64,000 nucleotides of DNA, taken from positions 574-64,573 of the forward strand of contig CAZYPW010000008.1 in NCBI GenBank assembly GCA_964649615.1, in the 5' to 3' direction. Positions 10,959 through 47,178 of the stretch are shown here, piece by piece. Below the pieces are notes generated by a model. The model made no database searches, was not told where the DNA came from, and saw nothing but the letters and a program-made list of their open reading frames with translations. Position numbers and translations under genes: made by a program. Within the stretch, counting starts at the first letter, position 1. Each line of letters opens with the position of its first letter. This stretch comes from an uncultured Gammaproteobacteria bacterium (GTDB lineage: Bacteria > Patescibacteriota > Microgenomatia > Daviesbacterales > UBA10151).

Positions 10959-10994
10959 ACTTAATTCTTTTTACTCCTTTCAATTAAATGAGAA

Positions 10995-11081
10995 AGTATT
11001 AAGTATCAAGTAGTAAGTATTATGGGAAATAATAAATTTAAATCTTTCATACCCTTAATACATAATACTTAATACATACTA
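10995..11081. repeat. Inverted pair of heptamer arrays in the nusA-infB intergenic region
   Basis: agtatta/agtatca/agtagta/agtatta (10995-11022) faces cttaata/cataata/cttaata/catacta (11054-11081). Together they can fold as a long imperfect hairpin. Confidence 0.5.
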
Positions 11082-34279: not shown

Positions 34280-35287
34280 ATGGATTTACGGCCAATTACT
34301 GACAAACAAAAATCCCAATATAACAAACTGGTTACCCATGTTATCCAGTCCTGGGAATGGGGGAAATTTCGCAAAAGTTTGGGGATACCAGTTGTAAGAT
34401 ATGGATTATACAAAAATGACAAATTATCAAAAGCATTCCAGCTAACCTTACACAAAATTCCATTCACAGACAAATTTGTAGGTTACCTGCCAAAAGGCCC
34501 GTTCCCGAATAAAGATTTGGCAGGGACTCTTGAAAAAATTGGCAAAGAATATCATTGTGCTTTTATAAAACTTGAACCGAATGTAGAGGTTACAGGTAAT
34601 AGGTTACAGGTTACAGGAAACCTCATTAAATCTCCTAAACCACTTTTTACAAAATACAACTTCGTACTAGATCTGACAAAATCCGAGGAGGAACTTTTAA
34701 AAAATATGCACCCTAAAACCAGATACAATATTAAAGTAGCTCAAAAACATGGAGTTAAAGTAGAAGAAAGAGTAGATGATGAAGCTTTCAAAATTTATTT
34801 AAAATTATATTTTGAGACAACTAAACGCCAGGGTTATCATGGCCATAATGAAAACTACCACAGAAAAGTTTGGGAAACTTTGAAAAAAGAAAATATGGCT
34901 ACCTTATTAATAGCCACCCTAAAAAGTGCGCCTCTAACTGCCTGGATGCTGCTCAAATTTAGGGATACTCTATACTATCCATACGGTGGTTCATCGCTTG
35001 CCCATAGAGAAGCTATGGCCAATAATTTAGTAGCCTGGGAGGCTATAAAATTAGGCAAAAAAATGGGCCTTAAAAAATTTGATATGTGGGGAGCATTGAG
35101 TTCTGATGCCAACCCTCAAGATCCCTGGTTCGGATTCCATAAATTCAAACAAGGTTATGGTGGAAAATTAGTTGAGTATATCGGCACATATGATTTAGTT
35201 TTCAACTGGCCAATTTACATCTTGTTTACAGCTATTGACAAATTGACTCCTTTAAAAATTGCCCTCCTGAAATTGCTAAAAAAGTAA
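34280..35287 (+). CDS. FemAB-family peptidoglycan interpeptide-bridge aminoacyltransferase
   Basis: A FemX/MurM-like GNAT-pair architecture of about 335 aa with conserved ...KTRYNIK...KRQGYHG... regions. Confidence 0.7.
   Translation: MDLRPITDKQKSQYNKLVTHVIQSWEWGKFRKSLGIPVVRYGLYKNDKLSKAFQLTLHKIPFTDKFVGYLPKGPFPNKDLAGTLEKIGKEYHCAFIKLEPNVEVTGNRLQVTGNLIKSPKPLFTKYNFVLDLTKSEEELLKNMHPKTRYNIKVAQKHGVKVEERVDDEAFKIYLKLYFETTKRQGYHGHNENYHRKVWETLKKENMATLLIATLKSAPLTAWMLLKFRDTLYYPYGGSSLAHREAMANNLVAWEAIKLGKKMGLKKFDMWGALSSDANPQDPWFGFHKFKQGYGGKLVEYIGTYDLVFNWPIYILFTAIDKLTPLKIALLKLLKK
34583..34617. repeat. Heptamer tandem array (gtagagg/ttacagg/taatagg/ttacagg/ttacagg) inside the femAB-family gene
   Basis: Seen in sequence. 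It encodes VEVTGNRLQVTGNL. It is the same TTRYAGG unit family as the pcrA array, in the opposite orientation. Confidence 0.7.
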
Positions 35288-35701
35288 ATCACGAGCCACC
35301 TTATAACCCTTATTCTTATAAAACTCATCAAAAGACAAAATAATACCTGCTTTATGCTGCTTTGCCAGTGCCAAAATCAAACAATCAAAGGGGGTATGGT
35401 GTTTAGAGGCTAATGCGTCAAAGTAGCTGACTGAATTCATAAAATCTTCCTGGGAAACAGCTATTACCAATAGATTAGGGTCCGTATATTGTTGTAACAA
35501 TTCATTAGTAAGCTGGGGGTTGTTGTAACGCCTTTGAATAGTTGTGGCAGCTTCAACCAAAGCAGAAACAGGAAATAATACCTTTGCTCCACTCTCAATC
35601 AACTTCTGTGCTATTTTTAGTGCATAAATGTGGTTGGAATCATTTTCCATCATCTGGGAGATTAAAAAATCAGCATCACAGACACAAACCTGATTATCCA
35701 T
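35276..35701 (-). CDS. vapC: PIN-domain toxin VapC
   Basis: PIN acidic residues lie in VCDADFLIS, ...PFDCLILALA and ILSFD. It overlaps the upstream antitoxin gene. Confidence 0.75.
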   Translation of the reverse strand: MDNQVCVCDADFLISQMMENDSNHIYALKIAQKLIESGAKVLFPVSALVEAATTIQRRYNNPQLTNELLQQYTDPNLLVIAVSQEDFMNSVSYFDALASKHHTPFDCLILALAKQHKAGIILSFDEFYKNKGYKVARDLLF

Positions 35702-35971
35702 TTTTATTGCCCTGACCCTGCCACATCTTATCTATCTCTTCTAAAGCACTACTCTTTGGCAATTTGCCAGTTTGATATTTTTTACCCAACTCAGCTAGTT
35801 TAAGCAAAGACTTTGCAGAGGCATTTTTTTGAGAGCTGGCAGTCTCCAAACCTGCTTCAAGGGCGGCTCTTATGACTTCGGCCTGGCTAGTGCCCTCGCT
35901 ATCAGCAACCTTTTTTATCCTCTCTTTTATGTACGCTGGTATATACATCATGGTCTTTTGCATTTGCATAA
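35694..35971 (-). CDS. vapB: Ribbon-helix-helix (CopG/VapB-type) antitoxin
   Basis: The RHH fold reads IPAYIKERIKKVADSEGTSQAEVIRAALEAGL. The track start at 35990 lies inside the promoter, so the likely start is the ATG at 35971 (MQMQKT). Confidence 0.7.
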
Positions 35972-35978
35972 TATAATC

Positions 35979-36018
35979 ATTATACCACAAATACCATATA
36001 TGTCAAGTATATATGGTA
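35979..36018 (-). promoter_or_regulatory. vapBC promoter with a palindromic operator over the -35 box
   Basis: On the minus strand a TTGACA is followed by a 16-nt spacer and TATAAT, then 9 nt to the ATG (near-leaderless). A 10-bp inverted repeat taccatatat-N7-atatatggta (35992-36018) brackets the -35. Confidence 0.5.
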
Positions 36019-36026
36019 AATCAGCT

Positions 36027-36048
36027 CAATTTTGACTGAAATCTTACA
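36027..36048. repeat. Direct repeat copy 1 (aattttgactgaaatcttaca) upstream of fic
   Basis: It is identical over 21 bp to 37134-37154 and contains a TTGACT -35-like hexamer. Confidence 0.7.
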
Positions 36049-36087
36049 AAGTACACTATTTTATACTACACTAATGCCCATATACAC

Positions 36088-36116
36088 TTGACATGTAGTG
36101 TTAAGTAGTATAAGAT
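36088..36116 (+). promoter_or_regulatory. Putative fic promoter
   Basis: TTGACA-N17-TAAGAT sits 6 nt upstream of the fic ATG (leaderless-type). Confidence 0.35.
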
Positions 36117-36122
36117 AGCCTT

Positions 36123-37064
36123 ATGGATAACAAATTACAGCTACTTACTAGGAAAAAACAAAAACTAGACACTTTCAGACCATTACCGCCAGAACTGGTT
36201 AAAAATCTTGATGACTGGTTTAAGGTTGAGTTGACCTATACCTCTAATGCCATAGAAGGGAACACCCTTACGAGGGCAGAGACAGCCTTGGTAGTGGAAA
36301 AGGGTCTTACAGTTCAGGGCAAAAGTTTAACAGAACATTTAGAGGCTACTAATCATGCCGAGGCATTAGATTATGTAAAAACACTAGTTGGTAAGAATAG
36401 ACAAGACATAACTGAAAACGACATTTTTGAGATACACAAACTAATCCTAAATAAAATTGAGGCAGAAAATGCTGGAAGATATAGGACACAACATGCAAGG
36501 TTTACGCAGTCAGATGTGGTTTTACCAAACCCTGTTAAAATCCCAGACCTGATGCAAGAGTTTATGGTTTGGTTAAAGGGTCGAAACTTAGACCATATAG
36601 TTAAAATTGCTGCCGATGCCCATTATAGGTTAGTCAGTATCCATCCTTTCTCGGATGGTAATGGTAGAACTTCACGCCTCTTAATGAATTTACTTTTAAT
36701 GCAACAGGGATACCCACCAGCCATCATCCGTAAAGAAGACAGGTTAGCTTACATAAACTCTTTAGAAAAGGCTCAAAAAGGGAATGGCTTGGATGATTTC
36801 TACAACCTTGTCTATGAGGCAGTTGACCGTTCATTGGATATTTACCTTGAGGCGATTGAGCCTGAGAGGATAAGTGTGGCTGAACCAAGTCCCAAGCAAC
36901 TTTTCTATACCACAGAGGAAGTGGCAAAGTTACTTCAGGTAGACCCAGAAAGTGTCAGGCGTTATGTTAGAAGTGGAAAATTAAGGGCAGTCAGGTTAGG
37001 CGGCAAATTTATCAGAATAGACAGAGCGGACTTAAATAATTTTATAGAGGAACTTAAAAGATAA
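36123..37064 (+). CDS. fic: Fic/Doc-family AMPylase fused to a C-terminal excisionase/MerR-type HTH domain
   Basis: The Fic motif is HPFSDGNGRTSR. The C-terminal HTH reads LFYTTEEVAKLLQVDPESVRRYVRSGKLRAVRLGGKFIRI. Confidence 0.85.
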   Translation: MDNKLQLLTRKKQKLDTFRPLPPELVKNLDDWFKVELTYTSNAIEGNTLTRAETALVVEKGLTVQGKSLTEHLEATNHAEALDYVKTLVGKNRQDITENDIFEIHKLILNKIEAENAGRYRTQHARFTQSDVVLPNPVKIPDLMQEFMVWLKGRNLDHIVKIAADAHYRLVSIHPFSDGNGRTSRLLMNLLLMQQGYPPAIIRKEDRLAYINSLEKAQKGNGLDDFYNLVYEAVDRSLDIYLEAIEPERISVAEPSPKQLFYTTEEVAKLLQVDPESVRRYVRSGKLRAVRLGGKFIRIDRADLNNFIEELKR

Positions 37065-37202: not shown

Positions 37203-37760
37203 ATGGATATAACTCTTATAATTTCCAGTGGAATTTTACTTGGCTGCCTCCTTGCTCTTTCCTGGTTTGCCGGATCCGATGCCCCATATGTTCCAACTAA
37301 AATGGATTATATAAGAAAAATTTTGAAATTCGCCGGGGTTAAAAAAGGCAGAAAATTTTATGAATTAGGATCCGGTGATGGAAGGGTAGTTATAGCAGCT
37401 GCAAAACTGGGGGCTCACTCTATTGGAATAGAGCAGTCTTGGATTCGCGTATTATATTCAAAATATAAATCCAGCAAACTAGCTTCCCACTCGTCAAGTG
37501 GGAACGTAGATTTTTATCATGGAAATATTTTTAAAAAATCATACCAGGATGCAGATATTGTTTATATTTATTTACTCAACAAGGGTGTTAATAAATTGGA
37601 AGAAAAGTTAAGAAAAGAATTAAAAAAAGGGAGCATCGTAATCATCCAAACTTACCATTTTCCAAATTGGAAACCGTTTAAACAAATAGATCTTTCCAAA
37701 GAAATTGATTTTTCCAAAGATATTCAAGGGGCTGGAAACTTTTGGCTGTATCGAGTTTAA
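37203..37760 (+). CDS. Class I SAM-dependent methyltransferase with an N-terminal membrane anchor
   Basis: Motif I is ELGSGDGRVVIAAAKLG. An N-terminal TM helix is present. Confidence 0.6.
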   Translation: MDITLIISSGILLGCLLALSWFAGSDAPYVPTKMDYIRKILKFAGVKKGRKFYELGSGDGRVVIAAAKLGAHSIGIEQSWIRVLYSKYKSSKLASHSSSGNVDFYHGNIFKKSYQDADIVYIYLLNKGVNKLEEKLRKELKKGSIVIIQTYHFPNWKPFKQIDLSKEIDFSKDIQGAGNFWLYRV

Positions 37761-38371
37761 AAGCCTAATTTTTCATTAACTAAAATTAAAGTTAATCTTC
37801 CCGGAATTTTTTCTTTATTTATTATTAACAGTTTGCTGACTCCACTTTCAACACCATATGCTTTTTTAGCTCTTTCATTCTCTAACGGCAAAACATATTC
37901 ATAAATTCTCTTGATACCTTCATCAGTATTTTTAACAATTTTTTGTGCTCCTACCACCCAAATTACATTTAATGCTGCATATGCATAAGCTGGTAATTGG
38001 CTTCCAGAATTGGAGGCAATTAAGACTTGTCCTTCTTCTGTCACCGCATGAACACTGCCTATTGCATATTGGGACGCTGCTCCCAGTTTATTCATTTCCT
38101 GAGCTTGAGTCTGCTGATTCATGGCATAAAGCTTATCTCTAACCGGCTTAAATTTGCCATCTTTTTTATTTATCTCTTCAGATAAACCAATAGTATCTAA
38201 AGTGACTGAGGTCATCGTCATTATTTCAGCACCCTCTGGTAAAAGCTTAAGCACCATTTCTTTTGCTTGATTACCATTCTCTGCATATTTAGCATCTATC
38301 CCATTTGCCTTCAAAGCTGCAATTGTTTTATCTAAAATAGCTTTATCTGCCAGTTGATTCCATTTATCCAT
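37757..38371 (-). CDS. LUD-domain protein (LutC/YkgG-like)
   Basis: The LUD family region IGSVHAVTEEGQVLIASNSGSQL matches. Confidence 0.55.
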   Translation of the reverse strand: MDKWNQLADKAILDKTIAALKANGIDAKYAENGNQAKEMVLKLLPEGAEIMTMTSVTLDTIGLSEEINKKDGKFKPVRDKLYAMNQQTQAQEMNKLGAASQYAIGSVHAVTEEGQVLIASNSGSQLPAYAYAALNVIWVVGAQKIVKNTDEGIKRIYEYVLPLENERAKKAYGVESGVSKLLIINKEKIPGRLTLILVNEKLGF

Positions 38372-38384
38372 AGGAGATCAGATA

Positions 38385-39506
38385 TTATAACTGAATTATT
38401 TCTTTGGGGGAAGTAGTCAGTTGTCTTAAAGCTGTCTTTTCCAAAACAAATAAATCCTCAATTCTAACTCCGCCAAAATCCGGGATATAAATTCCTGGTT
38501 CAATTGAAAAAACCATCCCCTCTTTTAAAATATCTTTACTTTTTGGTGACAAAGATGGGTGTTCGTGCACTTTAAGTCCAATTCCATGACCCAGGGAATG
38601 TGGAATGGTCGGGAAACCATGAGATGTGATGTATTTTCTTGCTGTCTTATCCACCTCTTTGGCCTTGATCTTCTGCCCGCTTTCTGTTGCTGCCTTGATA
38701 AATTCCACTGCCTTTTGTTGAGCTTCTAAAACAATACTGTAAACTTCTTTGTGTTTATCAGAAGGTTTTCCAAAAAATACAGTCCTTGTCATATCCGAAC
38801 AATAATTCTCAAACTTTACTCCGAAGTCAACAAGGATAAATAATCCTTGTTGTCCTGAGCGACCGGAGGGAGTCGAAGGACCCAGTTTTGTATTTCCAGT
38901 TTGATGATGGGGAACTGAGGAATTTTTTCCAAACGCCACAATTGTAGGGAAAGCGATTTCTGCTTCCTGCTTTTTAATAAAATTTTCCAGCTCCTCTGCT
39001 ATTTCTTTTTCAGTTACCCCAACTTTGATTTTCTTTAAAATATATTCAAAAGCTTGATCGCCAATTTTGCATGCTTTTTCTATTTTGCTTAACTCATCAT
39101 CTGTCTTTATAGATCTTAAATTATCTACACTAAAATGTTTTATATTTTTAAAATGCTTTTTAAAAAATTTTCCCTCCAAAACAGTTAAATTATCTTCCTC
39201 AATCCCCAATTTTTTGATCTCTTTTTTATGTTTTTTTAAAAGATCCTCTGTTGATTTTCCCTGCCCTCTTTGGAAAAGCTCTAAATGAGGCACTTCTTTT
39301 TTTATAGCTTCTGAATATCTGCCGTCTGTAATAATGTACCCAAAATTTTCTCCCAAAAAAATATATGCCTCTCTTTCATCCTTGGAAAAATTTGAATACC
39401 CTGTCAGATACTCAATATTTGAAACTGAAGAAACAAAAACAGCATCAAGCTTTTCAGTTTTAATATCTTCTCGTAACTTCTGGATTCTTTTTATATACAT
39501 ATTCAA
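38385..39506 (-). CDS. pepP: M24-family Xaa-Pro aminopeptidase/dipeptidase
   Basis: The metal-binding motifs read ...DMTRTVFFG...HSLGHGIGLKVHE...EPGIYIPDFGGVRIED. Confidence 0.8.
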   Translation of the reverse strand: MNMYIKRIQKLREDIKTEKLDAVFVSSVSNIEYLTGYSNFSKDEREAYIFLGENFGYIITDGRYSEAIKKEVPHLELFQRGQGKSTEDLLKKHKKEIKKLGIEEDNLTVLEGKFFKKHFKNIKHFSVDNLRSIKTDDELSKIEKACKIGDQAFEYILKKIKVGVTEKEIAEELENFIKKQEAEIAFPTIVAFGKNSSVPHHQTGNTKLGPSTPSGRSGQQGLFILVDFGVKFENYCSDMTRTVFFGKPSDKHKEVYSIVLEAQQKAVEFIKAATESGQKIKAKEVDKTARKYITSHGFPTIPHSLGHGIGLKVHEHPSLSPKSKDILKEGMVFSIEPGIYIPDFGGVRIEDLFVLEKTALRQLTTSPKEIIQL

Positions 39507-42463
39507 AAACTCAAAGTTCGTAACTCACAATACTTACAATCTTTTTTCCCGCATGTCTGGTCCCAAAAAGTAAGGTTTATTATTTGATCACCCACTGACT
39601 TTATCAGCTTTTCCAGTTCTTTAACTTGACTTTCAGAAATGGAAAAAATTTCTGATTTGAATTTTCCTTTTTCATCCGGTTCTATAAAATCTATCACACC
39701 CTCATTCATTTTGAACAATCCGTTTTTATACCGATCCAGCAGCAATTTATAAAATACCAGCTGTCTTAAGTAATTATATTTTTTATCATCTTTTGAACCG
39801 TCAATTTGAGATCTGGATCTTGGCTTTCCGGTTTTAAAATCATGCACCGATACGATATTGCCTCTGATAACCTCAATCATATCCAGCCGGCCATTTAATA
39901 TCAGATTATTGGAAAATTTAACACCCTTAATTTGCATTTCGCTTTGCAAATCTTTAGGCCAAGTCGGAATAATCTGATGGAAATAATTAATCAGCACTTT
40001 TTTGCCTTTTTCCACAAGCTCTTTGTAGTCTGTCTCTGATAAAGCGCTTTTATCCAAAACTTCCAGATATTTATCAATCAATATTTTCTCATTTATTTTT
40101 TTATAATGCCTGGCCTTTATAAAATAATCCAGAGCATTATGTATTGCTGTTCCGAAAATTAGAAATTTATTTTTGACATCAGGGAGAGATACCAAGTTTA
40201 TAAAAAAATATTTCCAGGGACATTCAAGAAAATTTCCCAAACCGGTAACAGATAAACCTTTCTCCAAAAATAAACTCTGTAGATATTTTTTATTTTTGGC
40301 ACTGATTTTTATTGGCTTACTGTTTGCAAATAAATCTTTTTTGTCAAAACTTTTTTCAAACTTAACAGTATCAATATACTCAACAAATTGATCATTGATT
40401 TCCTGTAAAAACTGACTGGGTAATTGTTCCCTTCCCTCAATTGAAACAGCAGGATAAGTTAAATAAATATTTTTTTTTGCTCTGGTTAACCCAACATACA
40501 AAAGCCTTCTTTCATCCTCCAGTTTTTCAAATTCAACCTCTGTTTTAACATTTTCTCCTAAAAATTTCCAGGGAATAGCAATTTTTGCATCTTTCTTCCT
40601 GCTGCCCCAACGGCTGTCAAAAAAATTGATAATAAAAACCGTTTCAAATTCCAATCCTTTCGATTTATGAACAGTCATAAGCCTGACTCCTTCATCCAGA
40701 GTTTTTTGATCTTTGGTGGAAATTGTTACCTTATGTTTTTTTGAAGTTTCCAAAAGATAAAGAAAATCAGATAAAGAAAACGCAGGATTTTTGTAAGTAT
40801 TCTGTTTTATCTGATTAAAAAGTGCGGTTAATTTATTTAAAACCTGATACCTGTCTGACTTTGATAAAATATCCTTCATCAACCCTGATTCATCAATTAT
40901 TTTTACAAATAAATCATCAAAAGGAATATTTACAGAAAGTGTAATCCAACCCTTATAGGTTTGTAGAAAAAGTTTAAATTTCTCATTTTTTTCTAGTGCG
41001 GAAATAAAACTAATCTTCTCTTTTTTGGCAAAATGAATTGTTTTATATAAATCAAAAGGGTCAAAGCCCAAAAAATCTATCTGCATTACCCTGGACAGAT
41101 AATACTCATCAAAAGGACTTGCCAGAGATTCCAGTATAAGGATTAATTTTTTTATCTGGTCAGATTCCAGCACATCGTCATCTGATGAAATAATAAACTT
41201 GATTCCCTTTTTGTTTAAAACCTCAACTAAAGGAAATAGATCGGCATTTCTTCTTGCTAAAACCGCGATCTCCGAAATATTGGCTCCCTTTTTAATCAGG
41301 TCTTTAATTTCTTCTCCAATATATTCATATTCCAAATTATAATCAGATAATTTGACTACTTTTATTCTGGAACCTGTTTTTTTATTATTAGATGTTAAAC
41401 GAACGGAAGGCAAAATATTGGCACTGATATTTTTTTCAATTAGTGATGTGGCTGCATCCAATATAGTTTGATATGACCGGTAATTTTTCTGCAAATTTAT
41501 CATTTTTGCCCTCTTATATAATTTTTTAAAAAACAAAAAATTCTCTAAAGATGCGCCCTGAAAACGGTATATTGCCTGACTGATATCTCCCACCACAAAT
41601 AAATTGGGATTATCATAGTAGGAAGAAATCAGTTCAACCAGTTTATTTTGGGCAGAATTTGTATCCTGGTGTTCATCTATCAAAATATATTGATACTTTT
41701 CTTGAAGACGTAAAAGGAGATCTTTTTCTTTCTGCAAAACCTTCACCGCTTCAATCAGCATATCGCTAAAATCATATTTCTTCTCATCAATCAAAGTTTG
41801 CTGGTATAGAGTAAATATCTTTAAAAATTCGCGGCATTTCTCAATATCTTTTTTTAAATCAATATATTTGCCTTTCATCTCCCCTTTATATTTACCTTTT
41901 TCATGATATAAATCGGGAGCAGAGACAAACTCCTCCTGCCATTTGTTGATAGCTTCTTCTAATCTTTTGTGACTGATCCCTTCCTTTTTTAAATTGTTAA
42001 TTGAGGATAAAATATCGCGGATGTAATAGAGAGAATCTCCAAAGGGGCGCAGAATTTTAAAATCATCTTTTTCCAGTAACCTTTCCAAAATCTCCAGTTG
42101 TTCAATCTCTGTAATTGACTCTGCTGACAAAAGATAGGGGAATTCATCAGGATAATTTTTAATAATGTCATTAGCAAAAGAATGAAATGTTGAAATCTCA
42201 ACCCGAAATGCAGGCGTTCCGATAATTTCGGCAAGCCTTTTTCTCATCTCATATGCTGCCGATTCGGAAAATGTTAAAGCAAGAATATTTTCAGGGTTGA
42301 CTTGTGTCTTAAGTAAAATATTTGCAATCCTAACAGTCAAGATTTGGGTTTTACCTGTACCAGGACCGGCAAGCACCATCACAGGGCCCTCAATTTCATC
42401 AACTGCTTCTTTCTGCTGAGGATTTAAATTTTTGTATGCAAGTTTAAATTCATTTGTTATCAT
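39503..42463 (-). CDS. UvrD/PcrA-type SF1 helicase fused to a C-terminal Cas4/AddB-type Fe-S RecB-family nuclease
   Basis: The helicase has Walker A AGPGTGKTQ, DEHQDTN and VGLTRAK. The nuclease has GRLDMIEV, VHDFKTGK, QLVFY (QxxxY) and a 1+3 cysteine set (CPWKYF ... CGKKDCKYC). It overlaps the DUF2130-like gene by 14 nt. Confidence 0.75.
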   Translation of the reverse strand: MITNEFKLAYKNLNPQQKEAVDEIEGPVMVLAGPGTGKTQILTVRIANILLKTQVNPENILALTFSESAAYEMRKRLAEIIGTPAFRVEISTFHSFANDIIKNYPDEFPYLLSAESITEIEQLEILERLLEKDDFKILRPFGDSLYYIRDILSSINNLKKEGISHKRLEEAINKWQEEFVSAPDLYHEKGKYKGEMKGKYIDLKKDIEKCREFLKIFTLYQQTLIDEKKYDFSDMLIEAVKVLQKEKDLLLRLQEKYQYILIDEHQDTNSAQNKLVELISSYYDNPNLFVVGDISQAIYRFQGASLENFLFFKKLYKRAKMINLQKNYRSYQTILDAATSLIEKNISANILPSVRLTSNNKKTGSRIKVVKLSDYNLEYEYIGEEIKDLIKKGANISEIAVLARRNADLFPLVEVLNKKGIKFIISSDDDVLESDQIKKLILILESLASPFDEYYLSRVMQIDFLGFDPFDLYKTIHFAKKEKISFISALEKNEKFKLFLQTYKGWITLSVNIPFDDLFVKIIDESGLMKDILSKSDRYQVLNKLTALFNQIKQNTYKNPAFSLSDFLYLLETSKKHKVTISTKDQKTLDEGVRLMTVHKSKGLEFETVFIINFFDSRWGSRKKDAKIAIPWKFLGENVKTEVEFEKLEDERRLLYVGLTRAKKNIYLTYPAVSIEGREQLPSQFLQEINDQFVEYIDTVKFEKSFDKKDLFANSKPIKISAKNKKYLQSLFLEKGLSVTGLGNFLECPWKYFFINLVSLPDVKNKFLIFGTAIHNALDYFIKARHYKKINEKILIDKYLEVLDKSALSETDYKELVEKGKKVLINYFHQIIPTWPKDLQSEMQIKGVKFSNNLILNGRLDMIEVIRGNIVSVHDFKTGKPRSRSQIDGSKDDKKYNYLRQLVFYKLLLDRYKNGLFKMNEGVIDFIEPDEKGKFKSEIFSISESQVKELEKLIKSVGDQIINLTFWDQTCGKKDCKYCELRTLSF

Positions 42464-43601
42464 CTGTCTTAGTTTCTAATAATAAAGTTTCTGCTTCTAA
42501 AGCTTTTATTTCAGGCAAAGAAGCTCCCATTAGACCCTGCAGATCTCCATACATCCCAACTGTATTATCAATTACTTTCTGAATCTGTTTTTCTCTTTTA
42601 GCCCAAACTCTTGTATAAAGCTGTTTTTCAGATTCTAAATCCCCTTTCATGCTACTGAAAGCTTCAATTATTGCTTCAAATCGCTGCCTGAATTCATTTC
42701 CGCAAAGATAGGAATATAAAATTTCCATTTTGCTGTTTTTATCGACAACCGAAAGTTTACTCTTGGCAAGTTCCAACAGACTATTTCTTATAAGTTTTGC
42801 TAAAGACAAAAAAGCATCAAAACTTGCAATATGTACACCATCTTTGGTATCAAAATTCTTTATTCCCTCAGGTAGAATGCTGGAAATAATTATTGCAACG
42901 TCTGCTTTCGAGGCTCTCTGATCATCTTTCAATTTCTGTATCCACCCTTCAGTCCAATTTTTAGTCCGTTTGCTCTCCCAGATAATAGCTCCGCAAATTC
43001 TTCCATTTGAATCTTGTACTCTTTGTATAACATCCGCCCCCACAATGCCCTTTGGAACAGGAATTATTTCATCTGAAGGGAATTCTTTTTTTAAAATCTC
43101 TTCCAGCTCAAGTTCCATAACTTCCCCCTGTAGCTGCTGTGAACCCAAAGAGGCTTTTCTTTGTGCTTCTTCAAGAGATTTTTTCATCGCTTCCATCTGA
43201 TTCTCGTATTCTTTTTCTTTCAAATGAAACTTTTCTGCAACTTCTGTTTCAGTTTTTTCCTGAATTTTTTTTCTTTCTTCGTCAATTTGTCTTTGCTTTT
43301 CCAACTCCAGATTTTTTTCTTTTTCTTCCAGTTCTTGAGTTTTCTTCCGCAGTCCCAGCTCATATTCTCTGGCTTTTTCCAACTCTTCCTGCTGTTTTTT
43401 TACCCTTTCTTCTAAAACTGATCTTTCTTTTAAATCCTGTTCTTTAATTCTCTCTTCCAGTTTTAATTTTTCGTTAATCCATTTTTTATTAAACTCATCC
43501 CTTAATGACTGCTTTATTTTATCCTCAAGCTGACCTTTAAGGGCCTCGTCAACAGATATTTCTTTTTTACAGTTCGGACAAATCAAGATAGCTGCGCTCA
43601 T
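42450..43601 (-). CDS. DUF2130-like protein: N-terminal Zn-ribbon, long K/E-rich coiled coil and a C-terminal domain with a D...ExK motif
   Basis: The N-terminus reads CPNCKKEI. About 130 aa of heptad-rich coiled coil follow. The C-terminal GADVIQRV...GAIIWESKRTK is compatible with a PD-(D/E)xK fold. The family assignment is from memory. Confidence 0.5.
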   Translation of the reverse strand: MSAAILICPNCKKEISVDEALKGQLEDKIKQSLRDEFNKKWINEKLKLEERIKEQDLKERSVLEERVKKQQEELEKAREYELGLRKKTQELEEKEKNLELEKQRQIDEERKKIQEKTETEVAEKFHLKEKEYENQMEAMKKSLEEAQRKASLGSQQLQGEVMELELEEILKKEFPSDEIIPVPKGIVGADVIQRVQDSNGRICGAIIWESKRTKNWTEGWIQKLKDDQRASKADVAIIISSILPEGIKNFDTKDGVHIASFDAFLSLAKLIRNSLLELAKSKLSVVDKNSKMEILYSYLCGNEFRQRFEAIIEAFSSMKGDLESEKQLYTRVWAKREKQIQKVIDNTVGMYGDLQGLMGASLPEIKALEAETLLLETKTDDNK

Positions 43602-43618
43602 AACGTGGGTATTTTACC

Positions 43619-44032
43619 ATGATCAAAATTGTTAAGATATATCCTATGGTTAAAATATTTATAAAAGTTTTACCTGCTTTAATTTCATGGGCAATTTTTA
43701 TCTTTGCAGTTTTATACATTCCTTATCCGGAAACTTTAACTCAAGCAACAATTTTCCAAATACTCGGATTTTTTATCCCCTTATTTTTAGCAATCACTTT
43801 AACTTTAAACATTTTTTTAAAAAATATCTTTATATCTTTTTCAATTTCTTTAGGAATAACTATGCTACTGCTTCTTAAAGCTTTAGGTTCCCTAAATTTG
43901 GTTACTGGGATTTTAACAATTATTTCTGTAGGGCTGCTTATTAGTTATTTTAGAAAAATAAAAAAGCATAAGTTGACTTTGGAATCAAAGATACCTAAAC
44001 TCAAATCTTTTTCTAGACAAAAATCTTCTTGA
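43619..44032 (+). CDS. Hypothetical polytopic membrane protein
   Basis: Four predicted TM helices and no recognisable motif. Confidence 0.3.
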   Translation: MIKIVKIYPMVKIFIKVLPALISWAIFIFAVLYIPYPETLTQATIFQILGFFIPLFLAITLTLNIFLKNIFISFSISLGITMLLLLKALGSLNLVTGILTIISVGLLISYFRKIKKHKLTLESKIPKLKSFSRQKSS

Positions 44033-44063
44033 CTTTCGTATTTTATTTGGGTAATATAAATCC

Positions 44064-45194
44064 ATGCCCCTTAGAATTAAAATAACTAGAGATTTGTTAA
44101 ATAAATTTTATTGGGATAAAGATTTATCTATATATCAAATTGCTCCCATTTTAAAATACCATCCAGCAACTGTGGCAAAAAAATTGCATGAATTTAACAT
44201 TACTATCAAAACACCTACTGAAAGAACTATACTCTCTAAAAATAATCTTAAAGATTTATATTTAAAAGAAGGGCTATCTACAAATCAAGTCGCTAAACAA
44301 CTAAAATGTAGTGTTAAAACTGTCAGAAGAGGAATGAGAATATACAATATTTCTCTTCGTCCTCTGAAAAGAATTACCATAGAAAAAAAGATATTGGAAA
44401 CTCTTTACTATAAAAGTAATCTCTCGTTACAAACCATCGGGAAAAGGTATAATCTGACGCCATCTGGTGTTCTAAGGAAAATGAGAAAATATAATATCCG
44501 CTTAAAAACTAGTTGGGAAAATAATACTATTCATCCCAAAATACCTTTTAATGGTTCTTCTGAGGAAAAAGCTTATCTTATCGGCTTTAGATTGGGGGAT
44601 TTAGGAGTAAAGCAGAAAAGTAAACGTACTGGTTCTATTGTAGTCAAGTCTAACACCACAAAACTTGAACAAGTTACTTTGATGAAAAATCTATTTTCTT
44701 GTTATTCCGCCGTTTGGATCAGTGGGCCCAATATCAAAGGAGTATTCCATTTTACAACACTTTTACATCCCTCATTTGATTTTTTAATTCCTAAGAATGA
44801 TTGTATACCAGATTGGATCAAAAACACCAAAAAGCTTTTTCTTGCTTTTATAGCTGGGTACACGGACGCAGAGGGTAATATCGGAGTGTACGGTGGAAGA
44901 GCTCGTTTTAGAATTGGATCATATGACATAGGTATCTTGAGAAGTATAAATGATTTCTTTGCAAAACTCGGCCTTAGAACTATCCTAAGATTAGAGCAAC
45001 CAAAAGGTTTCATTGATAAACGAGGTGTTATACATAACGGAGATTTTTGGCGTGTATGTATAAATGAAAAGAATTCCCTGTTAAAAATTTTTGATTTATT
45101 AATTGTTTACATGAAGCATCAAAAGAGAATAGCAGATTTGCTGAAAGCAAGAGTTAATATTCTACAAAGAAATCATGCTATAATCCAGGCATGA
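44064..45194 (+). CDS. Free-standing double-motif LAGLIDADG homing endonuclease with three N-terminal HTH repeats
   Basis: The LAGLIDADG-like motifs are KAYLIGFRLGDLG and FLAFIAGYTDAEGNIGV. There are three ~55-aa repeats (...LSxxQIAxxLKxSxxTVxRxxRxYNI). The stop overlaps the metG ATG as ATGA. Confidence 0.65.
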   Translation: MPLRIKITRDLLNKFYWDKDLSIYQIAPILKYHPATVAKKLHEFNITIKTPTERTILSKNNLKDLYLKEGLSTNQVAKQLKCSVKTVRRGMRIYNISLRPLKRITIEKKILETLYYKSNLSLQTIGKRYNLTPSGVLRKMRKYNIRLKTSWENNTIHPKIPFNGSSEEKAYLIGFRLGDLGVKQKSKRTGSIVVKSNTTKLEQVTLMKNLFSCYSAVWISGPNIKGVFHFTTLLHPSFDFLIPKNDCIPDWIKNTKKLFLAFIAGYTDAEGNIGVYGGRARFRIGSYDIGILRSINDFFAKLGLRTILRLEQPKGFIDKRGVIHNGDFWRVCINEKNSLLKIFDLLIVYMKHQKRIADLLKARVNILQRNHAIIQA

Positions 45195-46576
45195 AGAAGT
45201 ATTTTGTTACTACGCCTATTTATTACGTAAACGATGTCGCACACATTGGGCATGCTTATCCTACCGTAGCAGCCGATGTTATAACTCGTTACTGGAAATT
45301 AAAAGGATACGACGCTAGACTTCTAACAGGCACTGATGAACATGGAGCAAAAATTGCCGAAGCTGCCAAAAAACATGATGAAGAACCAAAACAATATGCT
45401 GATGAGATTTCTGAAAAATTTAAAGAGGCTTGGAAAAAACTAAATATTAATTATGCTAGATTTATTAGAACAACTGACGAAGATCATATAAAAATTGCCC
45501 AAGATTTCTTGCAAAAACTTTATGACAAAGGTGCAATAGATCCAAAACCAAGACTTTATAAAGGATTATATTGTATCGGTCACGAAAAGTTTATGTCTCC
45601 TGATGAATTAAAAGATGGGCTATGCCCAGATCATAAAACAAAACCTGTTGAGCATTCGGAGGAAAATTACTATTTTAAACTTAGTAACTATCAAGAAAAA
45701 TTAGAAAAATTAATTGGCTCTGACGAAATTAAAGTAAGACCGATCTCAAGAAAAAATGAGATACTAGGAAAAATAAAACAAGGATTAGAAGATATCTCAA
45801 TTTCTCGAGCCAACCTTGAGTGGGGAATTCCTCTACCTTTTGATCTTTCTCATACTGCTTATGTTTGGATAGAGGCTTTAATTAATTACTATACTTATGG
45901 ATCACAAAATAGAATTTGGCCTGCTGATTTACACTTAGTAGGAAGAGATATCGTTTGGTTTCACAGCATAATTTGGCCTGCTATGTTACTGGCCATTAAT
46001 GAACGGCTACCGAAGGAAATTTTTGGTCATGGATTTTTTACAATTGATGGACAAAAGATGTCAAAGACTATCGGAAATGTAATTCATCCAGATGATTTAG
46101 TTGAAAAATATGGAGTTGATGGTACCAGGTATGTTCTACTTGCGGCATTTCCTTTTGGGGAAGATGGTGATTTTTCCTGGGATTTATTTGATAGATTATA
46201 TAACGCAGATTTGGCCAATGGCTTAGGCAATTTAGTGGCCAGAGTGGCTAAGCTATGTGAACAAAATAATATTACTGCTACAGCGGGACCAGATGTCTGG
46301 TGCGCTGATTTGGAAAAATTTATGGGGGAGTTTAAATTTAATGAAGCAATTGCAGTTATTTGGACGCTGATAACTGAGGCCGACCAGAAAGTAAATTTGG
46401 AAAAACCCTGGGAGCTGGCGGGTGAAAAAGCCAAAGTAGTTTTGGAGGATTTGGTTAAAAGAATTCAGGCAATTGGTTTTAATTTGCAGCCATTTTTACC
46501 CCAAACTTCAGAAAAAATCTTAAAACAATTTTCCGGAGAAATTAAATCAGGTAAACCCTTGTTCCCCCGCATATGA
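45191..46576 (+). CDS. metG: Methionyl-tRNA synthetase (short form lacking the C-terminal tRNA-binding domain)
   Basis: The HIGH motif is HIGHAY and the KMSKS motif is KMSKT. The anticodon-binding helical domain is present. Confidence 0.9.
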   Translation: MKKYFVTTPIYYVNDVAHIGHAYPTVAADVITRYWKLKGYDARLLTGTDEHGAKIAEAAKKHDEEPKQYADEISEKFKEAWKKLNINYARFIRTTDEDHIKIAQDFLQKLYDKGAIDPKPRLYKGLYCIGHEKFMSPDELKDGLCPDHKTKPVEHSEENYYFKLSNYQEKLEKLIGSDEIKVRPISRKNEILGKIKQGLEDISISRANLEWGIPLPFDLSHTAYVWIEALINYYTYGSQNRIWPADLHLVGRDIVWFHSIIWPAMLLAINERLPKEIFGHGFFTIDGQKMSKTIGNVIHPDDLVEKYGVDGTRYVLLAAFPFGEDGDFSWDLFDRLYNADLANGLGNLVARVAKLCEQNNITATAGPDVWCADLEKFMGEFKFNEAIAVIWTLITEADQKVNLEKPWELAGEKAKVVLEDLVKRIQAIGFNLQPFLPQTSEKILKQFSGEIKSGKPLFPRI

Positions 46577-47178
46577 TCTTTGTCTCATCAATAAAACTAA
46601 ATGGGAATATGTCCATATATTATGGAGATCCCAAGAAAGCTTTAGAGAATAGGAAAAGGTTTTTTGGAAAATTAGGAATTAATATAAAGAATGTTGTTGA
46701 AGTTAAACAAGTTCATGGTAATAAAGTCCTTCTAGCAGAAGATATTTTAAATTCCACTGCAGAAGCTGATAGTCTCCTCACTAACAAACAAGGGTTCATT
46801 TTGATGATGAAGATTGCAGACTGTATGGCAATTGGTTTATATGATCCAAAGCATAATGCTATAGCTTTAATCCACGCTGGATTTAGAGGGCTAGATAATG
46901 GGATCATTAAAAATTCCATTGATAAAATGAGGAAAAAATATAAAACTAATCCCAAAGATTTAATTATTAAAATCAACCCATCTATTGGGCCGTGCCATTA
47001 CCGGATAGACTTATGGAAACAAGCCGAAGAACAACTTATAGATGCAGGTGTCTTAAAGAAAAATATTGATAACCCAAAAATCTGCACTTATGAATCATCA
47101 GATTATTTTTCTCACAGAAGGTCAGATGATACAAACACAACTGAGGGCAGGTTTGTTACAATATTCGGATTATGTTAA
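46573..47178 (+). CDS. pgeF: PgeF/YfiH-family (DUF152) purine-nucleoside phosphorylase/peptidoglycan editing factor
   Basis: QVHG, ADCMAIGLYDP, HAGFRG and ...CTYESSDYFSHRR motifs are present. Confidence 0.75.
   Translation: MIFVSSIKLNGNMSIYYGDPKKALENRKRFFGKLGINIKNVVEVKQVHGNKVLLAEDILNSTAEADSLLTNKQGFILMMKIADCMAIGLYDPKHNAIALIHAGFRGLDNGIIKNSIDKMRKKYKTNPKDLIIKINPSIGPCHYRIDLWKQAEEQLIDAGVLKKNIDNPKICTYESSDYFSHRRSDDTNTTEGRFVTIFGLC

What the first reader, a model, noticed from the sequence alone, without database searches (positions are those of the whole stretch)
39503..43601. Translationally coupled DUF2130-like gene and UvrD-helicase/Cas4-type Fe-S nuclease fusion: candidate undescribed DNA-processing or defence module
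Seen in sequence: a 383-aa protein (Zn-ribbon CPNCKKEI, about 130 aa of K/E coiled coil, and a C-terminal domain with a D...WESK pattern compatible with PD-(D/E)xK) overlaps by 14 nt a 986-aa protein. That second protein joins an intact SF1 UvrD helicase core to a RecB-family nuclease carrying the four-cysteine cluster of AddB/Cas4. Established: AddA nucleases lack the Fe-S cluster and AddB helicase domains are inactive, so a single-chain active helicase plus Fe-S nuclease is not the canonical AddAB layout. A second, housekeeping-type PcrA/UvrD is present at 30921-32822. Inference: the pair sits in an island full of toxin-antitoxin modules, Fic, a homing endonuclease and pseudogenes, which is the typical context for anti-phage systems. 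Known helicase-nuclease defence genes (Nhi, Gabija, Hachiman) use different partner proteins.
Basis: partly seen in the sequence, partly recalled or inferred. Interest (0 to 1): 0.8.

Follow-up and report, generated by a model that had tools for sequence, protein, structure and literature searches.

The report
Conserved repair helicase–nuclease with DUF2130 partner
The two overlapping genes are real, but they are probably inherited DNA repair and recombination genes in a conserved housekeeping block of Daviesbacteria, not an anti-phage island; the main new point is that DUF2130 occupies the slot that RmuC holds in sister lineages.

Summary
On the minus strand, 42450-43601 encodes a 383-aa DUF2130 protein. 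It has an invariant CPxC, a roughly 155-residue helix and a PD-(D/E)xK core. It overlaps by 14 nt the gene at 39503-42463, which encodes a 986-aa UvrD-type helicase fused to a RecB/Cas4-type nuclease with four invariant cysteines.

The defence reading is not supported for this locus. In relatives down to 47% identity, the pair lies in the same housekeeping block (TatD-MetRS-small ORF | DUF2130-helicase/nuclease-M24 peptidase-methyltransferase-FemAB…PcrA). The Fic, PIN/antitoxin and LAGLIDADG-like genes are insertions specific to this window. In 80 more distant relatives the helicase–nuclease neighbours DnaG–RpoD, RecR, RecA or MetRS, and no recurrent neighbour is an R-M or defence gene.

The pairing is lineage-restricted. 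Two of 80 DUF2130 loci carry the helicase–nuclease, and one of 80 helicase–nuclease loci carries DUF2130. In a sister Microgenomates lineage, RmuC fills the same slot.

UvrD–Cas4-like fusions were described in 2017, and DUF2130 was classed as PD-(D/E)xK in 2012.

Best reading: a single-chain AddA/RecB-like end-resection enzyme with an RmuC-analogous nuclease. Function is inferred, not shown. Interest is moderate.

The parts
42450..43601 (-). DUF2130 gene (383 aa): N-terminal CPxC, long coiled-coil helix, PD-(D/E)xK nuclease core, helical C-terminal region
43569..43580 (-). CPNC motif (residues 8-11). C8 and C11 are invariant. Putative metal-binding or dimer-tethering site.
   Evidence: Invariant in alignments A1 and A3. 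There are only two cysteines, so this is not a classical zinc ribbon. The function is inferred.
43083..43550 (-). Predicted single long alpha-helix / coiled coil (residues 18-173)
   Evidence: DSSP on the AlphaFold2 model, helix 18-173.
42825..43142 (-). PD-(D/E)xK catalytic core of DUF2130 (residues about 154-259; E160/E163, D177, D190, E209-x-K211)
   Evidence: Conserved columns. Strand order E178-181, E191-196, E202-211, H219-230, E235-240. Fold matches to Can2, McrC, Hjc, Bax1 and restriction endonucleases.
39503..42463 (-). Helicase-nuclease gene (986 aa), overlapping the DUF2130 stop by 14 nt
   Evidence: The whole-chain model matches AddA (E=1e-33), RecB, AdnB, AdnA and AddB.
40454..42427 (-). 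SF1A UvrD/PcrA-type motor (residues 13-670) with intact Walker A, DEHQD, motif III (R300/F301) and motif VI (R661)
   Evidence: Pfam UvrD-helicase and UvrD_C. Invariant motifs. PcrA 1pjr at E=2e-68 by sequence and 4e-36 by fold.
39515..40255 (-). RecB/Cas4-type PD-(D/E)xK nuclease domain (residues 737-983) with four invariant cysteines (C748, C971, C976, C979) spaced as in Fe-S cluster nucleases
   Evidence: PDDEXK_1 E=2e-19. Cas4 TIGR00372 at 38.8 bits, below its cutoff of 65. Invariant D861, D875xK877 and QxxxY. Cluster binding itself was not tested.
38385..39506 (-). M24 Xaa-Pro peptidase gene, same strand, 4-nt overlap with the helicase-nuclease gene. Context only, not part of the module.
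   Evidence: Present downstream in L002/L003, L171 and L172 and absent in L004.
43619..44032 (+). Small membrane-protein ORF divergent from DUF2130. It marks the conserved 'slot' between MetRS and the nuclease gene.
   Evidence: Homologous to the ORFs in the same position in L002, L004 and L005. Weakly similar (E=0.002) to the ORF next to RmuC in L102; L102's ORF in turn matches those in L131 and L096.
45191..46576 (+). Methionyl-tRNA synthetase, the conserved anchor of the syntenic block

Best explanation
This is a vertically inherited housekeeping DNA recombination and repair locus of Daviesbacteria (Microgenomates, CPR). It is not defence-island cargo.

**Helicase–nuclease.** The 986-aa protein is a single-chain counterpart of AddA, RecB and AdnB. 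Its UvrD-type 3'->5' motor would unwind DNA from an end or nick. Its C-terminal nuclease is of the RecB/Cas4 type and is probably stabilised by an Fe-S cluster. It would cut the displaced strand, leaving single-stranded DNA for RecA.

**DUF2130.** The upstream protein is a coiled-coil endonuclease with a PD-(D/E)xK core. In this lineage it occupies the genomic position that RmuC holds in sister Microgenomates. It most likely does an RmuC-like job, such as cutting branched or secondary-structure DNA, or otherwise generating or processing substrates for the helicase–nuclease.

**Status of the evidence.** The domain content, conserved catalytic residues, synteny and the RmuC/DUF2130 alternation are shown. 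Enzymatic activities, strand polarity, Fe-S binding and any physical or pathway coupling between the two proteins are inferred.

**My estimates.** About 0.75 that the locus is housekeeping repair or recombination rather than dedicated defence. About 0.45 that the two proteins actually work together.
For: **1. Synteny**
- L002/L003 (61% identity) and L004 (47%) keep the block TatD-MetRS-small ORF | DUF2130-helicase/nuclease-(M24)-DOT1-like MTase-FemAB...G5/3D-PcrA.
- L008 (50%), L171 (48%), L005 (48%) and L172 (53%) keep large parts of it.
- The Fic, PIN, LUD, Cu-oxidase_4 and LAGLIDADG-like genes occur only in the window.

**2. Matching divergence (for L002/L004/L005/L008)**
- Helicase–nuclease: 61/47/48/50%.
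- DUF2130: 57/50/47/48%.
- MetRS: 73/45/44/48%.
- The Daviesbacteria DUF2130 sequences form one clade.

**3. Housekeeping context of more distant helicase–nuclease relatives.** In 80 relatives (30-53% identity), recurrent neighbours are RpoD (15 loci), DnaG (10), DsbA-like (14), RecR (9), BacA (9), a 3'-5' exonuclease (6), RecA (5) and MetRS (5). No recurrent neighbour cluster was a restriction-modification or defence gene. Other repair genes lie alongside in L168 (Exo_endo_phos, DNA_alkylation) and L169 (PIF1).

**4. The RmuC slot**
- RmuC (PF02646, E=3e-52) lies directly upstream on the same strand in L094, L096, L097, L100, L131, L168 and L169.
- It is two genes away in L170.
- In L096, L097, L100, L131 and L168-L170 it sits in the MetRS-flanked slot, with TatD also seen in L168-L170.
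- The lineage is labelled Microgenomates.

**5. Other DUF2130 pairings.** DUF2130 also sits upstream of distant helicase–nucleases in L071 (RecA two genes away) and L112. Both copies fall on separate DUF2130 branches.

**6. Intact catalytic motifs** in both proteins.

**7. Structure.** The whole-chain fold matches AddA, RecB and AdnB. The DUF2130 core matches PD-(D/E)xK nucleases, including the Holliday-junction resolvase Hjc.

**8. Parallel with RmuC.** Housekeeping RmuC is linked to recombination at inverted repeats, and RmuC domains have nuclease activity (PMC10270631).
Against: - No experiment exists on either protein or on any close homologue.
- The pairing is not obligatory. Among eight distinct Daviesbacteria-like loci it is direct in four.
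  - In L171 one opposite-strand gene interrupts it.
  - In L005 about 7 kb separate the two genes.
  - L172 has no DUF2130 within 7 kb.
  - L010 has DUF2130 followed by 1.4 kb without a helicase.
- Other CPR lineages, including Levybacteria and Roizmanbacteria, have DUF2130 without the helicase–nuclease nearby.
- DUF2130 and RmuC are not demonstrably homologous beyond the first catalytic helix (hhalign E=0.1). 'Analogue' rests on architecture and position only.
- Outside CPR, DUF2130 sits in defence islands and on plasmids.
- Distant UvrD-nuclease fusions (23-26% identity) on plasmids lie next to BREX or R-M genes. A defence-related activity therefore cannot be excluded.
- Whether the genome lacks AddAB, RecBCD, RecJ or SbcCD could not be checked.
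Confidence: 0.6

Rival explanations
1. The pair is an anti-phage or anti-plasmid defence system. DUF2130 senses or cuts invading DNA and the helicase-nuclease degrades it, as in Gabija-, Nhi- or RecBCD-type immunity. The system has become fixed in the Daviesbacteria chromosome.
For: - Outside CPR, 14 of 80 DUF2130 loci carry strong defence components. These are DrmD 717 bits, Type III MTase 763 bits, SIR2 446 bits with HerA 535 bits, and PDC-S06 951 bits.
- DUF2130 occurs on 46 plasmids and 7 Helicobacter prophage-like records.
- Distant full-length UvrD-nuclease fusions lie beside BREX-1 or an R-M methylase. Hudaiberdiev et al. 2017 predicted defence roles for such fusions.
- The window holds TA and Fic genes nearby.
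Against: - The pair sits in a housekeeping block that stays syntenic down to 47% identity. The TA and Fic genes are window-specific insertions.
- Divergence matches that of MetRS.
- In 86 helicase-nuclease loci, no recurrent neighbour cluster is a restriction, methylase or known defence gene.
- PADLOC hits to GajB come from the generic UvrD core, and no GajA-like partner is present. DUF2130 has no PADLOC model match.
- No phage record carries a full-length homologue of the helicase-nuclease.
Confidence: 0.12
2. The two genes are functionally unrelated neighbours. The helicase-nuclease is a housekeeping repair enzyme. DUF2130 is an independent, possibly once-mobile, nuclease that inserted next to it in the Daviesbacteria ancestor. 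The 14-nt overlap is just genome compaction.
For: - Only 2 of 80 DUF2130 loci have the helicase-nuclease and only 1 of 80 helicase-nuclease loci has DUF2130.
- The pair is split in L005, L171, L172 and L010.
- The overlap is not conserved: the gap is +6 nt in L004 and 89 nt in L071.
- The unrelated M24 peptidase gene is equally tightly overlapped (4 nt).
- DUF2130 is stand-alone on plasmids.
Against: - A nuclease of the same architecture class (RmuC) occupies the same slot directly upstream of the orthologous helicase-nuclease in a sister lineage.
- DUF2130 appears upstream of very distant helicase-nucleases in L071 and L112, on separate DUF2130 branches.
- Repeated juxtaposition of coiled-coil PD-(D/E)xK nucleases with this helicase is unlikely by chance in genomes of about 1000 genes. 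This is an argument, not a computed probability.
Confidence: 0.2
3. The proteins process imported or foreign DNA for nucleotide salvage or natural transformation. This is a suggested need of small-genome CPR bacteria (stated from my own knowledge, not checked here). They would not act in chromosomal break repair.
For: - A TatD DNase gene lies in the same conserved block.
- A weak 'Competence-induced Ccs4_N' hit lies at the edge of L168 and L170.
- The helicase-nuclease and an endonuclease together could degrade linear DNA.
Against: - No competence, uptake or nucleotide-salvage genes recur next to the helicase-nuclease.
- The recurring neighbours with DNA roles are RecR, RecA, DnaG and a 3'-5' exonuclease.
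- TatD adjacency is to MetRS and is on the opposite strand.
Confidence: 0.06

Closest known systems
AddAB (Bacillus subtilis) and RecBCD (E. coli) end-resection helicase-nucleases
   Same: - UvrD-like SF1A motor followed by a C-terminal RecB-family nuclease in one chain.
- The whole-chain model matches AddA (4cej_A, E=1e-33) and RecB (E about 1e-25).
- The four-cysteine pattern matches the AddB nuclease.
   Different: - No AddB/RecC-like partner gene lies alongside.
- The Fe-S-type cysteines sit on the chain with the active motor. AddA lacks them, and AddB has an inactive motor.
- NCBIfam scores are far below the cutoffs: AddA 146 vs 708, AddB 28 vs 904, RecB 174 vs 696.
AdnAB (mycobacteria)
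   Same: - Each subunit is a UvrD-like motor or motor-like domain plus a C-terminal RecB-like nuclease.
- AdnB matches by sequence (6ppr_B, E=4e-23) and by fold (7sjr_B, TMq 0.57).
   Different: [quoted passage not shown]
- Its Fe-S cluster is in AdnA, the subunit with the inactive motor (PMC13000450).
- Here there is one chain, and its neighbour is not a paralogue.
UvrD-Cas4-like fusion proteins of pfam12705 (Hudaiberdiev et al. 2017, PMC5704561)
   Same: Same architecture: an SF1 UvrD helicase fused to a Cas4-like nuclease of the PDDEXK_1 family.
   Different: - Those were reported mostly beside Type III R-M (Mod/Res) or Dcm/Vsr genes and were predicted to be defence-associated.
- Plasmid examples found here (Phaeobacter, Hymenobacter) are only 23-26% identical to the window protein.
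- The CPR clade sits in housekeeping contexts.
- Membership of their monophyletic clade was not tested.
RmuC (E. coli YigN; PF02646) and the Shield effector ShdA
   Same: - RmuC has a similar layout to DUF2130: a non-catalytic N-terminal region (a predicted transmembrane helix in E. coli RmuC) followed by a PD-(D/E)xK nuclease domain.
- RmuC occupies the identical slot upstream of the orthologous helicase-nuclease in sister Microgenomates.
- Both families have housekeeping copies and copies associated with defence islands, including DISARM (PMC10270631).
   Different: - The window protein has no Pfam RmuC match.
- The profile-profile comparison is not significant (E=0.1).
- DUF2130 has an N-terminal CPxC instead of RmuC's N-terminal membrane helix.
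Gabija (GajA/GajB) and Nhi helicase-nuclease defence systems
   Same: A UvrD-family helicase working with a nuclease. The best PADLOC GajB model scores 287 bits.
   Different: - The GajB similarity is confined to the generic UvrD core.
- No OLD-family GajA is present.
- GajB lacks a fused RecB-type nuclease.
- The genomic context here is not a defence island.
Dna2 (eukaryotes and archaea)
   Same: A single chain combining an active SF1 helicase with an Fe-S cluster RecB-type nuclease. There is a weak Pfam Dna2 hit (E=0.0013, residues 737-842).
   Different: Dna2 has the nuclease N-terminal to an SF1B (5'->3') helicase. Here the SF1A motor comes first and the nuclease is C-terminal.

Membership tests
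DUF2130 (PF09903 / COG4487) | Match to the Pfam model above the gathering score | tested here: met
   226.8 bits against a cutoff of 26.7, residues 127-369. NCBI names the identical protein 'DUF2130 domain-containing protein'.
PD-(D/E)xK nuclease superfamily (DUF2130 C-domain) | Conserved D...(D/E)xK catalytic residues on an alpha-beta-beta-beta-alpha-beta core | tested here: met
RmuC (PF02646), asked of the DUF2130 protein | Sequence or profile match to RmuC | tested here: not met
   No Pfam RmuC hit. hhalign of DUF2130 against RmuC gives probability 0.6% and E=0.1, aligning only the first catalytic helix.
SF1A UvrD/PcrA/Rep helicases | Intact motifs I (Walker A), II (DExx), III and VI, plus the two RecA-like domains with 1B/2B inserts | tested here: met
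   Pfam UvrD-helicase and UvrD_C. Invariant GPGTGKT, DEHQD, R300/F301 and R661. Fold match to PcrA and UvrD at E about 1e-36. ATPase and unwinding activity cannot be tested here.
PcrA / UvrD / Rep orthologues (NCBIfam equivalogs) | Score above the curated equivalog cutoff | tested here: not met
   PcrA 333 against 911, UvrD 273 against 1144, Rep 266 against 951. The true PcrA-like gene is at 30921-32822.
RecB-family / Cas4-type Fe-S nucleases | Motifs D, (D/E)xK and QxxxY, plus one N-terminal and three C-terminal cysteines | tested here: met
   PDDEXK_1 E=2e-19. D861, D875-F-K877, Q901..Y905 and C748/C971/C976/C979 are invariant. Actual Fe-S binding cannot be tested with these tools.
Cas4 proper (TIGR00372) | Score above the equivalog cutoff, and CRISPR-cas context | tested here: not met
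   38.8 bits against a cutoff of 65. No cas genes within +/-10 kb.
AddAB / AdnAB / RecBCD complexes | Adjacent partner subunit (AddB/AdnA/RecC-like) with a degenerate helicase fold | tested here: not met
   The neighbours are DUF2130 and an M24 peptidase. All equivalog scores are below their cutoffs. A partner encoded elsewhere in the genome cannot be excluded.
Gabija | GajA (OLD-type ATPase-TOPRIM nuclease) encoded next to GajB | tested here: not met
   No GajA-like gene nearby. The GajB hits cover the generic UvrD core only.
Defence-island cargo (operational definition) | Variable presence between related genomes, and recurrent neighbourhood of known defence genes | tested here: not met
   Conserved housekeeping synteny. 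No defence-gene cluster recurs around 86 helicase-nuclease loci. The criterion is met for DUF2130 in other phyla.
UvrD-Cas4 fusion clade of Hudaiberdiev et al. 2017 | Monophyly with the published fusion clade; Type III R-M or Dcm/Vsr context | tested here: inconclusive
   The architecture matches. The published context is not found in the CPR loci. Plasmid representatives are 23-26% identical.

The most novel reading that the evidence does not exclude
Coiled-coil PD-(D/E)xK nucleases (RmuC, or DUF2130 as its positional replacement) and the single-chain UvrD/Fe-S-nuclease enzyme form an unrecognised two-step pathway in CPR bacteria. It would process breaks or DNA secondary structures and would fill the roles of SbcCD and RecBCD/AddAB in these small genomes. 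That would give the first functional assignment to DUF2130 and a biochemical partner for RmuC, whose role has been unclear since 2000. The invariant N-terminal CPxC ahead of a roughly 155-residue helix might act like the Rad50 zinc hook to tether DNA ends. The Rad50 comparison is recalled from memory and was not tested.
Probability: 0.3. Interest if true: 0.65.

Novelty: new variant of a known kind. Interest (0 to 1): 0.42.

Why it matters
**If the best reading is right.** This locus would identify the likely double-strand-break resection enzyme of a large group of uncultivated small-genome bacteria. That enzyme would be one chain combining an active UvrD motor with an Fe-S-type nuclease, rather than the two- or three-subunit AddAB, AdnAB or RecBCD machines.

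**Leads on two poorly understood nucleases.** The in-place alternation of RmuC and DUF2130 upstream of that enzyme is a concrete, testable clue to the function of both families.

**A caution for genome scans.** TA, Fic and homing-endonuclease genes nearby do not make a locus a defence island. DUF2130 sits in defence islands in other phyla, yet in this lineage it is part of the conserved core.

Tried and rejected
- **Gabija via PADLOC.** The GajB hits were rejected as evidence. They cover only the UvrD core and no GajA is present.
- **Sequence search of DUF2130 and of the isolated nuclease domain against PDB chains.** No usable hits, so fold searches were needed.
- **AlphaFold-database fold libraries.** Not available, so structural similarity of DUF2130 to RmuC models could not be tested.
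- **hhalign of DUF2130 against RmuC.** Not significant, so I do not claim homology.
- **Promoter and terminator scan of 38000-44200.** 23 promoter-like sites were found against 23 expected, and 3 terminator-like sites against 3.9. Uninformative about operon structure.
- **Rfam on the ORF-free 1.4 kb after DUF2130 in L010.** No match; this stretch is unexplained.
- **My recollection that both AdnA and AdnB carry Fe-S clusters.** Checked and dropped. The paper describes the cluster in AdnA only.
- **L071 as an independent proteobacterial case.** The locus is labelled 'uncultured Pseudomonadales', but its context (DUF4012, PMT, UbiA-GT4, RNase Y, RecA) looks CPR-like. I treat the label as doubtful.
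- **Base composition.** The pair has 31-34% GC against 34-37% nearby. I attribute this to the Lys/Glu-rich coiled coil and do not take it as evidence of transfer.


Full report
**1. Observation**

The window comes from a Candidatus Daviesbacteria MAG (Microgenomates, CPR). The record is GCA_016176385.1, contig JACOXE010000004.1, 146 kb.

Two minus-strand ORFs lie at 42450..43601 (383 aa) and 39503..42463 (986 aa). The junction ...GATGATAACAAATGA places the downstream ATG 14 nt before the end of the upstream stop codon. The 986-aa gene also overlaps the next gene, an M24 Xaa-Pro peptidase at 38385..39506, by 4 nt.

Pfam assigns domains as follows:
- The 383-aa protein is DUF2130 (E=3.5e-67).
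- The 986-aa protein has UvrD-helicase, UvrD_C and PDDEXK_1 domains.

All NCBIfam equivalogs score far below their cutoffs: PcrA, UvrD, Rep, RecB, AddA, AddB and Cas4. The protein is therefore none of these named orthologues.

**2. Anatomy**

*Helicase–nuclease.* In 34 homologues (48-100% identity), the helicase motifs, the nuclease motifs (D861, D875-x-K877, Q901xxxY905) and all four cysteines (C748, C971, C976, C979) are invariant.

An AlphaFold2 model (pLDDT 81) was searched against PDB:
- The motor matches PcrA and UvrD (E about 1e-36).
- The whole chain matches AddA (E=1e-33), RecB, AdnB, AdnA and AddB.

**3. Is it a variable island? No.**

Genomic contexts were retrieved for homologues at decreasing identity. 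They show one block:

UbiA-GT4-(591 aa)-TatD-MetRS-small membrane ORF (all one strand) | DUF2130-helicase/nuclease-(M24 peptidase)-DOT1-like methyltransferase-FemAB-...-G5/3D-PcrA-thioredoxin-TIM

The following genes are present only in the window and are insertions:
- Fic/HTH_17 (36123-37064)
- antitoxin + PIN (35276-35990)
- LUD_dom (37757-38371)
- Cu-oxidase_4 (46573-47178)
- HTH/LAGLIDADG-like ORF (44064-45194)

Identities to the window proteins, for L002/L004/L005/L008:

| Protein | L002 | L004 | L005 | L008 |
|---|---|---|---|---|
| Helicase–nuclease | 61% | 47% | 48% | 50% |
| DUF2130 | 57% | 50% | 47% | 48% |
| MetRS | 73% | 45% | 44% | 48% |

The pair diverges along with its housekeeping neighbours. 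Daviesbacteria DUF2130 sequences form one clade in a rough neighbour-joining tree without bootstrap support.

**4. How conserved is the pairing?**

Eight distinct loci were inspected:

| State of the pair | Loci |
|---|---|
| Directly adjacent, same strand | L001, L002/L003, L004, L008 |
| One opposite-strand gene between | L171 |
| About 7 kb and 14 genes between | L005 |
| No DUF2130 within 7 kb | L172 |
| DUF2130 followed by 1.4 kb without a helicase | L010 |

*Beyond Daviesbacteria.*
- DUF2130 is a broad family, with 1552 clusters at 50% identity at E<=1e-30. In 80 loci from species-representative genomes of many phyla, only L008 (Daviesbacteria) and L071 carry the helicase–nuclease.
- Conversely, of 80 metagenomic helicase–nuclease relatives (30-53% identity), only L112 has DUF2130.

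**5. Context of the helicase–nuclease elsewhere**

Neighbour clustering and Pfam annotation found these recurrent neighbours:
- DnaG primase and RpoD upstream (10 and 15 loci)
- a DsbA-like protein (14)
- a Big_5 protein followed by RecR (13 and 9)
- BacA (9)
- a 3'-5' exonuclease (6)
- FemAB

RecA lies nearby in five loci and MetRS in five. None of the recurrent clusters is a restriction, methylase or defence gene. The clade is therefore a core gene that is often near replication and recombination genes.

Full-length UvrD-nuclease fusions on plasmids are a different matter. They are only 23-26% identical, and they lie next to BREX-1 (Hymenobacter) or an R-M methylase and an ABC-three-component system (Phaeobacter). 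This matches the defence-linked UvrD-Cas4 fusions of Hudaiberdiev et al. 2017. No phage carries a full-length homologue.

**6. The RmuC slot**

In seven loci, the gene directly upstream of the helicase–nuclease on the same strand is RmuC (PF02646, E=3e-52). These are L094, L096, L097, L100, L131, L168 and L169. In L170 two small genes intervene.

The surrounding order is (507 aa)-TatD-MetRS-TrpR-like-small membrane ORF | RmuC-helicase/nuclease. This is the Daviesbacteria block with RmuC in place of DUF2130. MetRS is seen upstream of RmuC in L096, L097, L100, L131 and L168-L170.

Further details:
- The small membrane ORF next to DUF2130 is weakly similar (E=0.002) to the one next to RmuC in L102, and L102's ORF in turn matches those in L131 and L096.
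- The RmuC lineage is labelled 'Microgenomates group bacterium'.
- No RmuC is found in the 64-kb window.
- RmuC and DUF2130 share an architecture class (non-catalytic N-terminal region followed by a PD-(D/E)xK domain). They are not significantly similar by profile comparison (E=0.1; only the first catalytic helix aligns).

I read this as in-place displacement by an analogue. DUF2130 also sits upstream of distant helicase–nucleases in two other loci:
- L071, with RecA two genes away.
- L112, with one unknown ORF between the two genes.

These two DUF2130 copies lie on separate branches of the tree. A coiled-coil PD-(D/E)xK nuclease therefore appears to have been placed upstream of this helicase repeatedly. 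That argues for a functional link, but not an obligatory one.

**7. DUF2130 elsewhere**

In Nitrospira, Nitrosomonas and others, DUF2130 is embedded among strong PADLOC matches:
- DrmD, 717 bits
- Type III methyltransferase, 763 bits
- SIR2 (446 bits) with HerA (535 bits)
- PDC-S06, 951 bits
- Schlafen-like proteins

A frame DrmD-[cargo]-DUF2130-[cargo]-MTase recurs in L047, L052, L058 and L079. In total, 14 of 80 loci carry at least one of these genes.

DUF2130 is also found on 46 plasmids, 32 of them from Bradyrhizobium. On pMLa it lies near relaxase, ParA and ArdC-like genes. It also occurs in 7 Helicobacter heilmannii prophage-like records.

RmuC shows the same split between housekeeping copies and copies in defence islands, including DISARM-associated ones (Shield paper). 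DUF2130 as a family is thus versatile. In Daviesbacteria it is a fixed core gene.

**8. Mechanism (inferred)**

The UvrD-type motor has an intact ATP site and an aromatic residue at the motif III 'pawl' position (F301; aligned by eye against UvrD, AdnB and RecB). It should translocate 3'->5' and unwind from ends.

The C-terminal RecB/Cas4-type nuclease, probably stabilised by an Fe-S cluster, should cut the displaced strand. The result would be RecA substrates.

DUF2130, like RmuC, would act as a structure- or end-directed endonuclease. It would be held as a coiled-coil dimer, perhaps tethered through the CPxC.

None of these activities has been measured.

**9. Comparison and novelty**

The closest functional analogues are AddA, RecB and AdnB. 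In both AddAB and AdnAB, the Fe-S cluster is on the subunit with the inactive motor. An active motor with an Fe-S-type nuclease in one chain is therefore a variant layout. As an architecture it was already catalogued in 2017.

I found no paper linking DUF2130 or RmuC to such helicase–nucleases. Two points appear new:
- a housekeeping CPR clade of this fusion;
- the RmuC/DUF2130 alternation upstream of it.

**10. Verdict**

- Observation: confirmed.
- 'DNA-processing module': supported.
- 'Defence module in a variable island': not supported.
- Novelty: new variant of a known kind.
- Interest: moderate (0.42).

The main limits are that there is no experimental evidence, no genome-wide presence/absence data and no test of a physical complex.

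Noticed in passing
L047, L052, L058, L079 (also L076, L085), around position 10001-11260 of each locus: Outside CPR, DUF2130 recurs between a DISARM-type SNF2 helicase (DrmD, 717 bits) and a Type III methyltransferase (763 bits). Other systems (SIR2+HerA, PDC-S06, Schlafen-like) are nested beside it. DUF2130 may be an unrecognised component or accessory of a DISARM-like or R-M-like system. Fourteen of 80 loci carry at least one such gene.
   Followed up: partly
L166 (Mesorhizobium japonicum pMLa 268052-269347), L167 (Bradyrhizobium plasmid p4_1): DUF2130 is stand-alone on 46 plasmids, 32 of them Bradyrhizobium and 20 predicted conjugative. On pMLa it lies near relaxase, ParA, DUF736 and a zincin-like (ArdC-type) gene. 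It also occurs in 7 Helicobacter heilmannii prophage-like records.
   Followed up: partly
window 44064-45194 (+): A 376-aa ORF with several N-terminal HTH motifs and a weak LAGLIDADG_3 match (E=5e-4). It lies between the small membrane ORF and MetRS and overlaps the MetRS start by 4 nt. It is absent from all relatives examined, so it looks like a free-standing homing-endonuclease-like insertion.
   Followed up: partly
window 35276-37064 and 37757-38371, 46573-47178: Five genes are absent from the 61%-identical relative L002/L003: Fic/HTH_17, a PIN toxin with a small upstream ORF, a LUD_dom protein and a Cu-oxidase_4 protein. They are scattered small insertions into an otherwise syntenic housekeeping block.
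   Followed up: partly
L071 11286-14330 and L086-L093 (helicase-nuclease C-termini): One subclade of the helicase-nuclease ends at '...LKFL' and lacks the three C-terminal cysteines. This suggests loss of the Fe-S site. Another subclade (L094-L102) has a CxxCx5(H)C variant. By a strict pattern, 55 of 86 genes keep a C-terminal cysteine triad.
   Followed up: no
L168 10426-12260; L169 10040-11344: In the RmuC-bearing lineage, more DNA-metabolism genes follow the helicase-nuclease directly. L168 has an Exo_endo_phos nuclease and a DNA_alkylation repair protein. L169 has a PIF1-family helicase.
   Followed up: no
window 43569-43580 (DUF2130 residues 8-11) and alignment A3: The invariant CPxC(G) directly precedes a helix of about 155 residues. 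It resembles the Rad50 zinc-hook motif (recalled from memory, not tested) and may mediate metal-dependent dimer or tetramer tethering.
   Followed up: no
L010 11129-12511: In one Daviesbacteria MAG, DUF2130 is followed to the contig end by 1.4 kb with no ORF over 72 aa. This stretch has no helicase similarity and no Rfam match. Unexplained.
   Followed up: partly
L071 (record title 'uncultured Pseudomonadales'): The gene content (DUF4012, RNase Y, PMT, UbiA-GT4, RecA) and the CPR-type helicase-nuclease suggest the taxonomic label of this MAG contig is wrong.
   Followed up: no
L096 6350-6712, L131 2119-2484, L102 13362-13724, L168-L170: A conserved 120-aa Trp-repressor-like protein (PF01371, E=8.5e-11) sits between MetRS and the small membrane ORF in the RmuC lineage. 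It is absent from the Daviesbacteria block.
   Followed up: no
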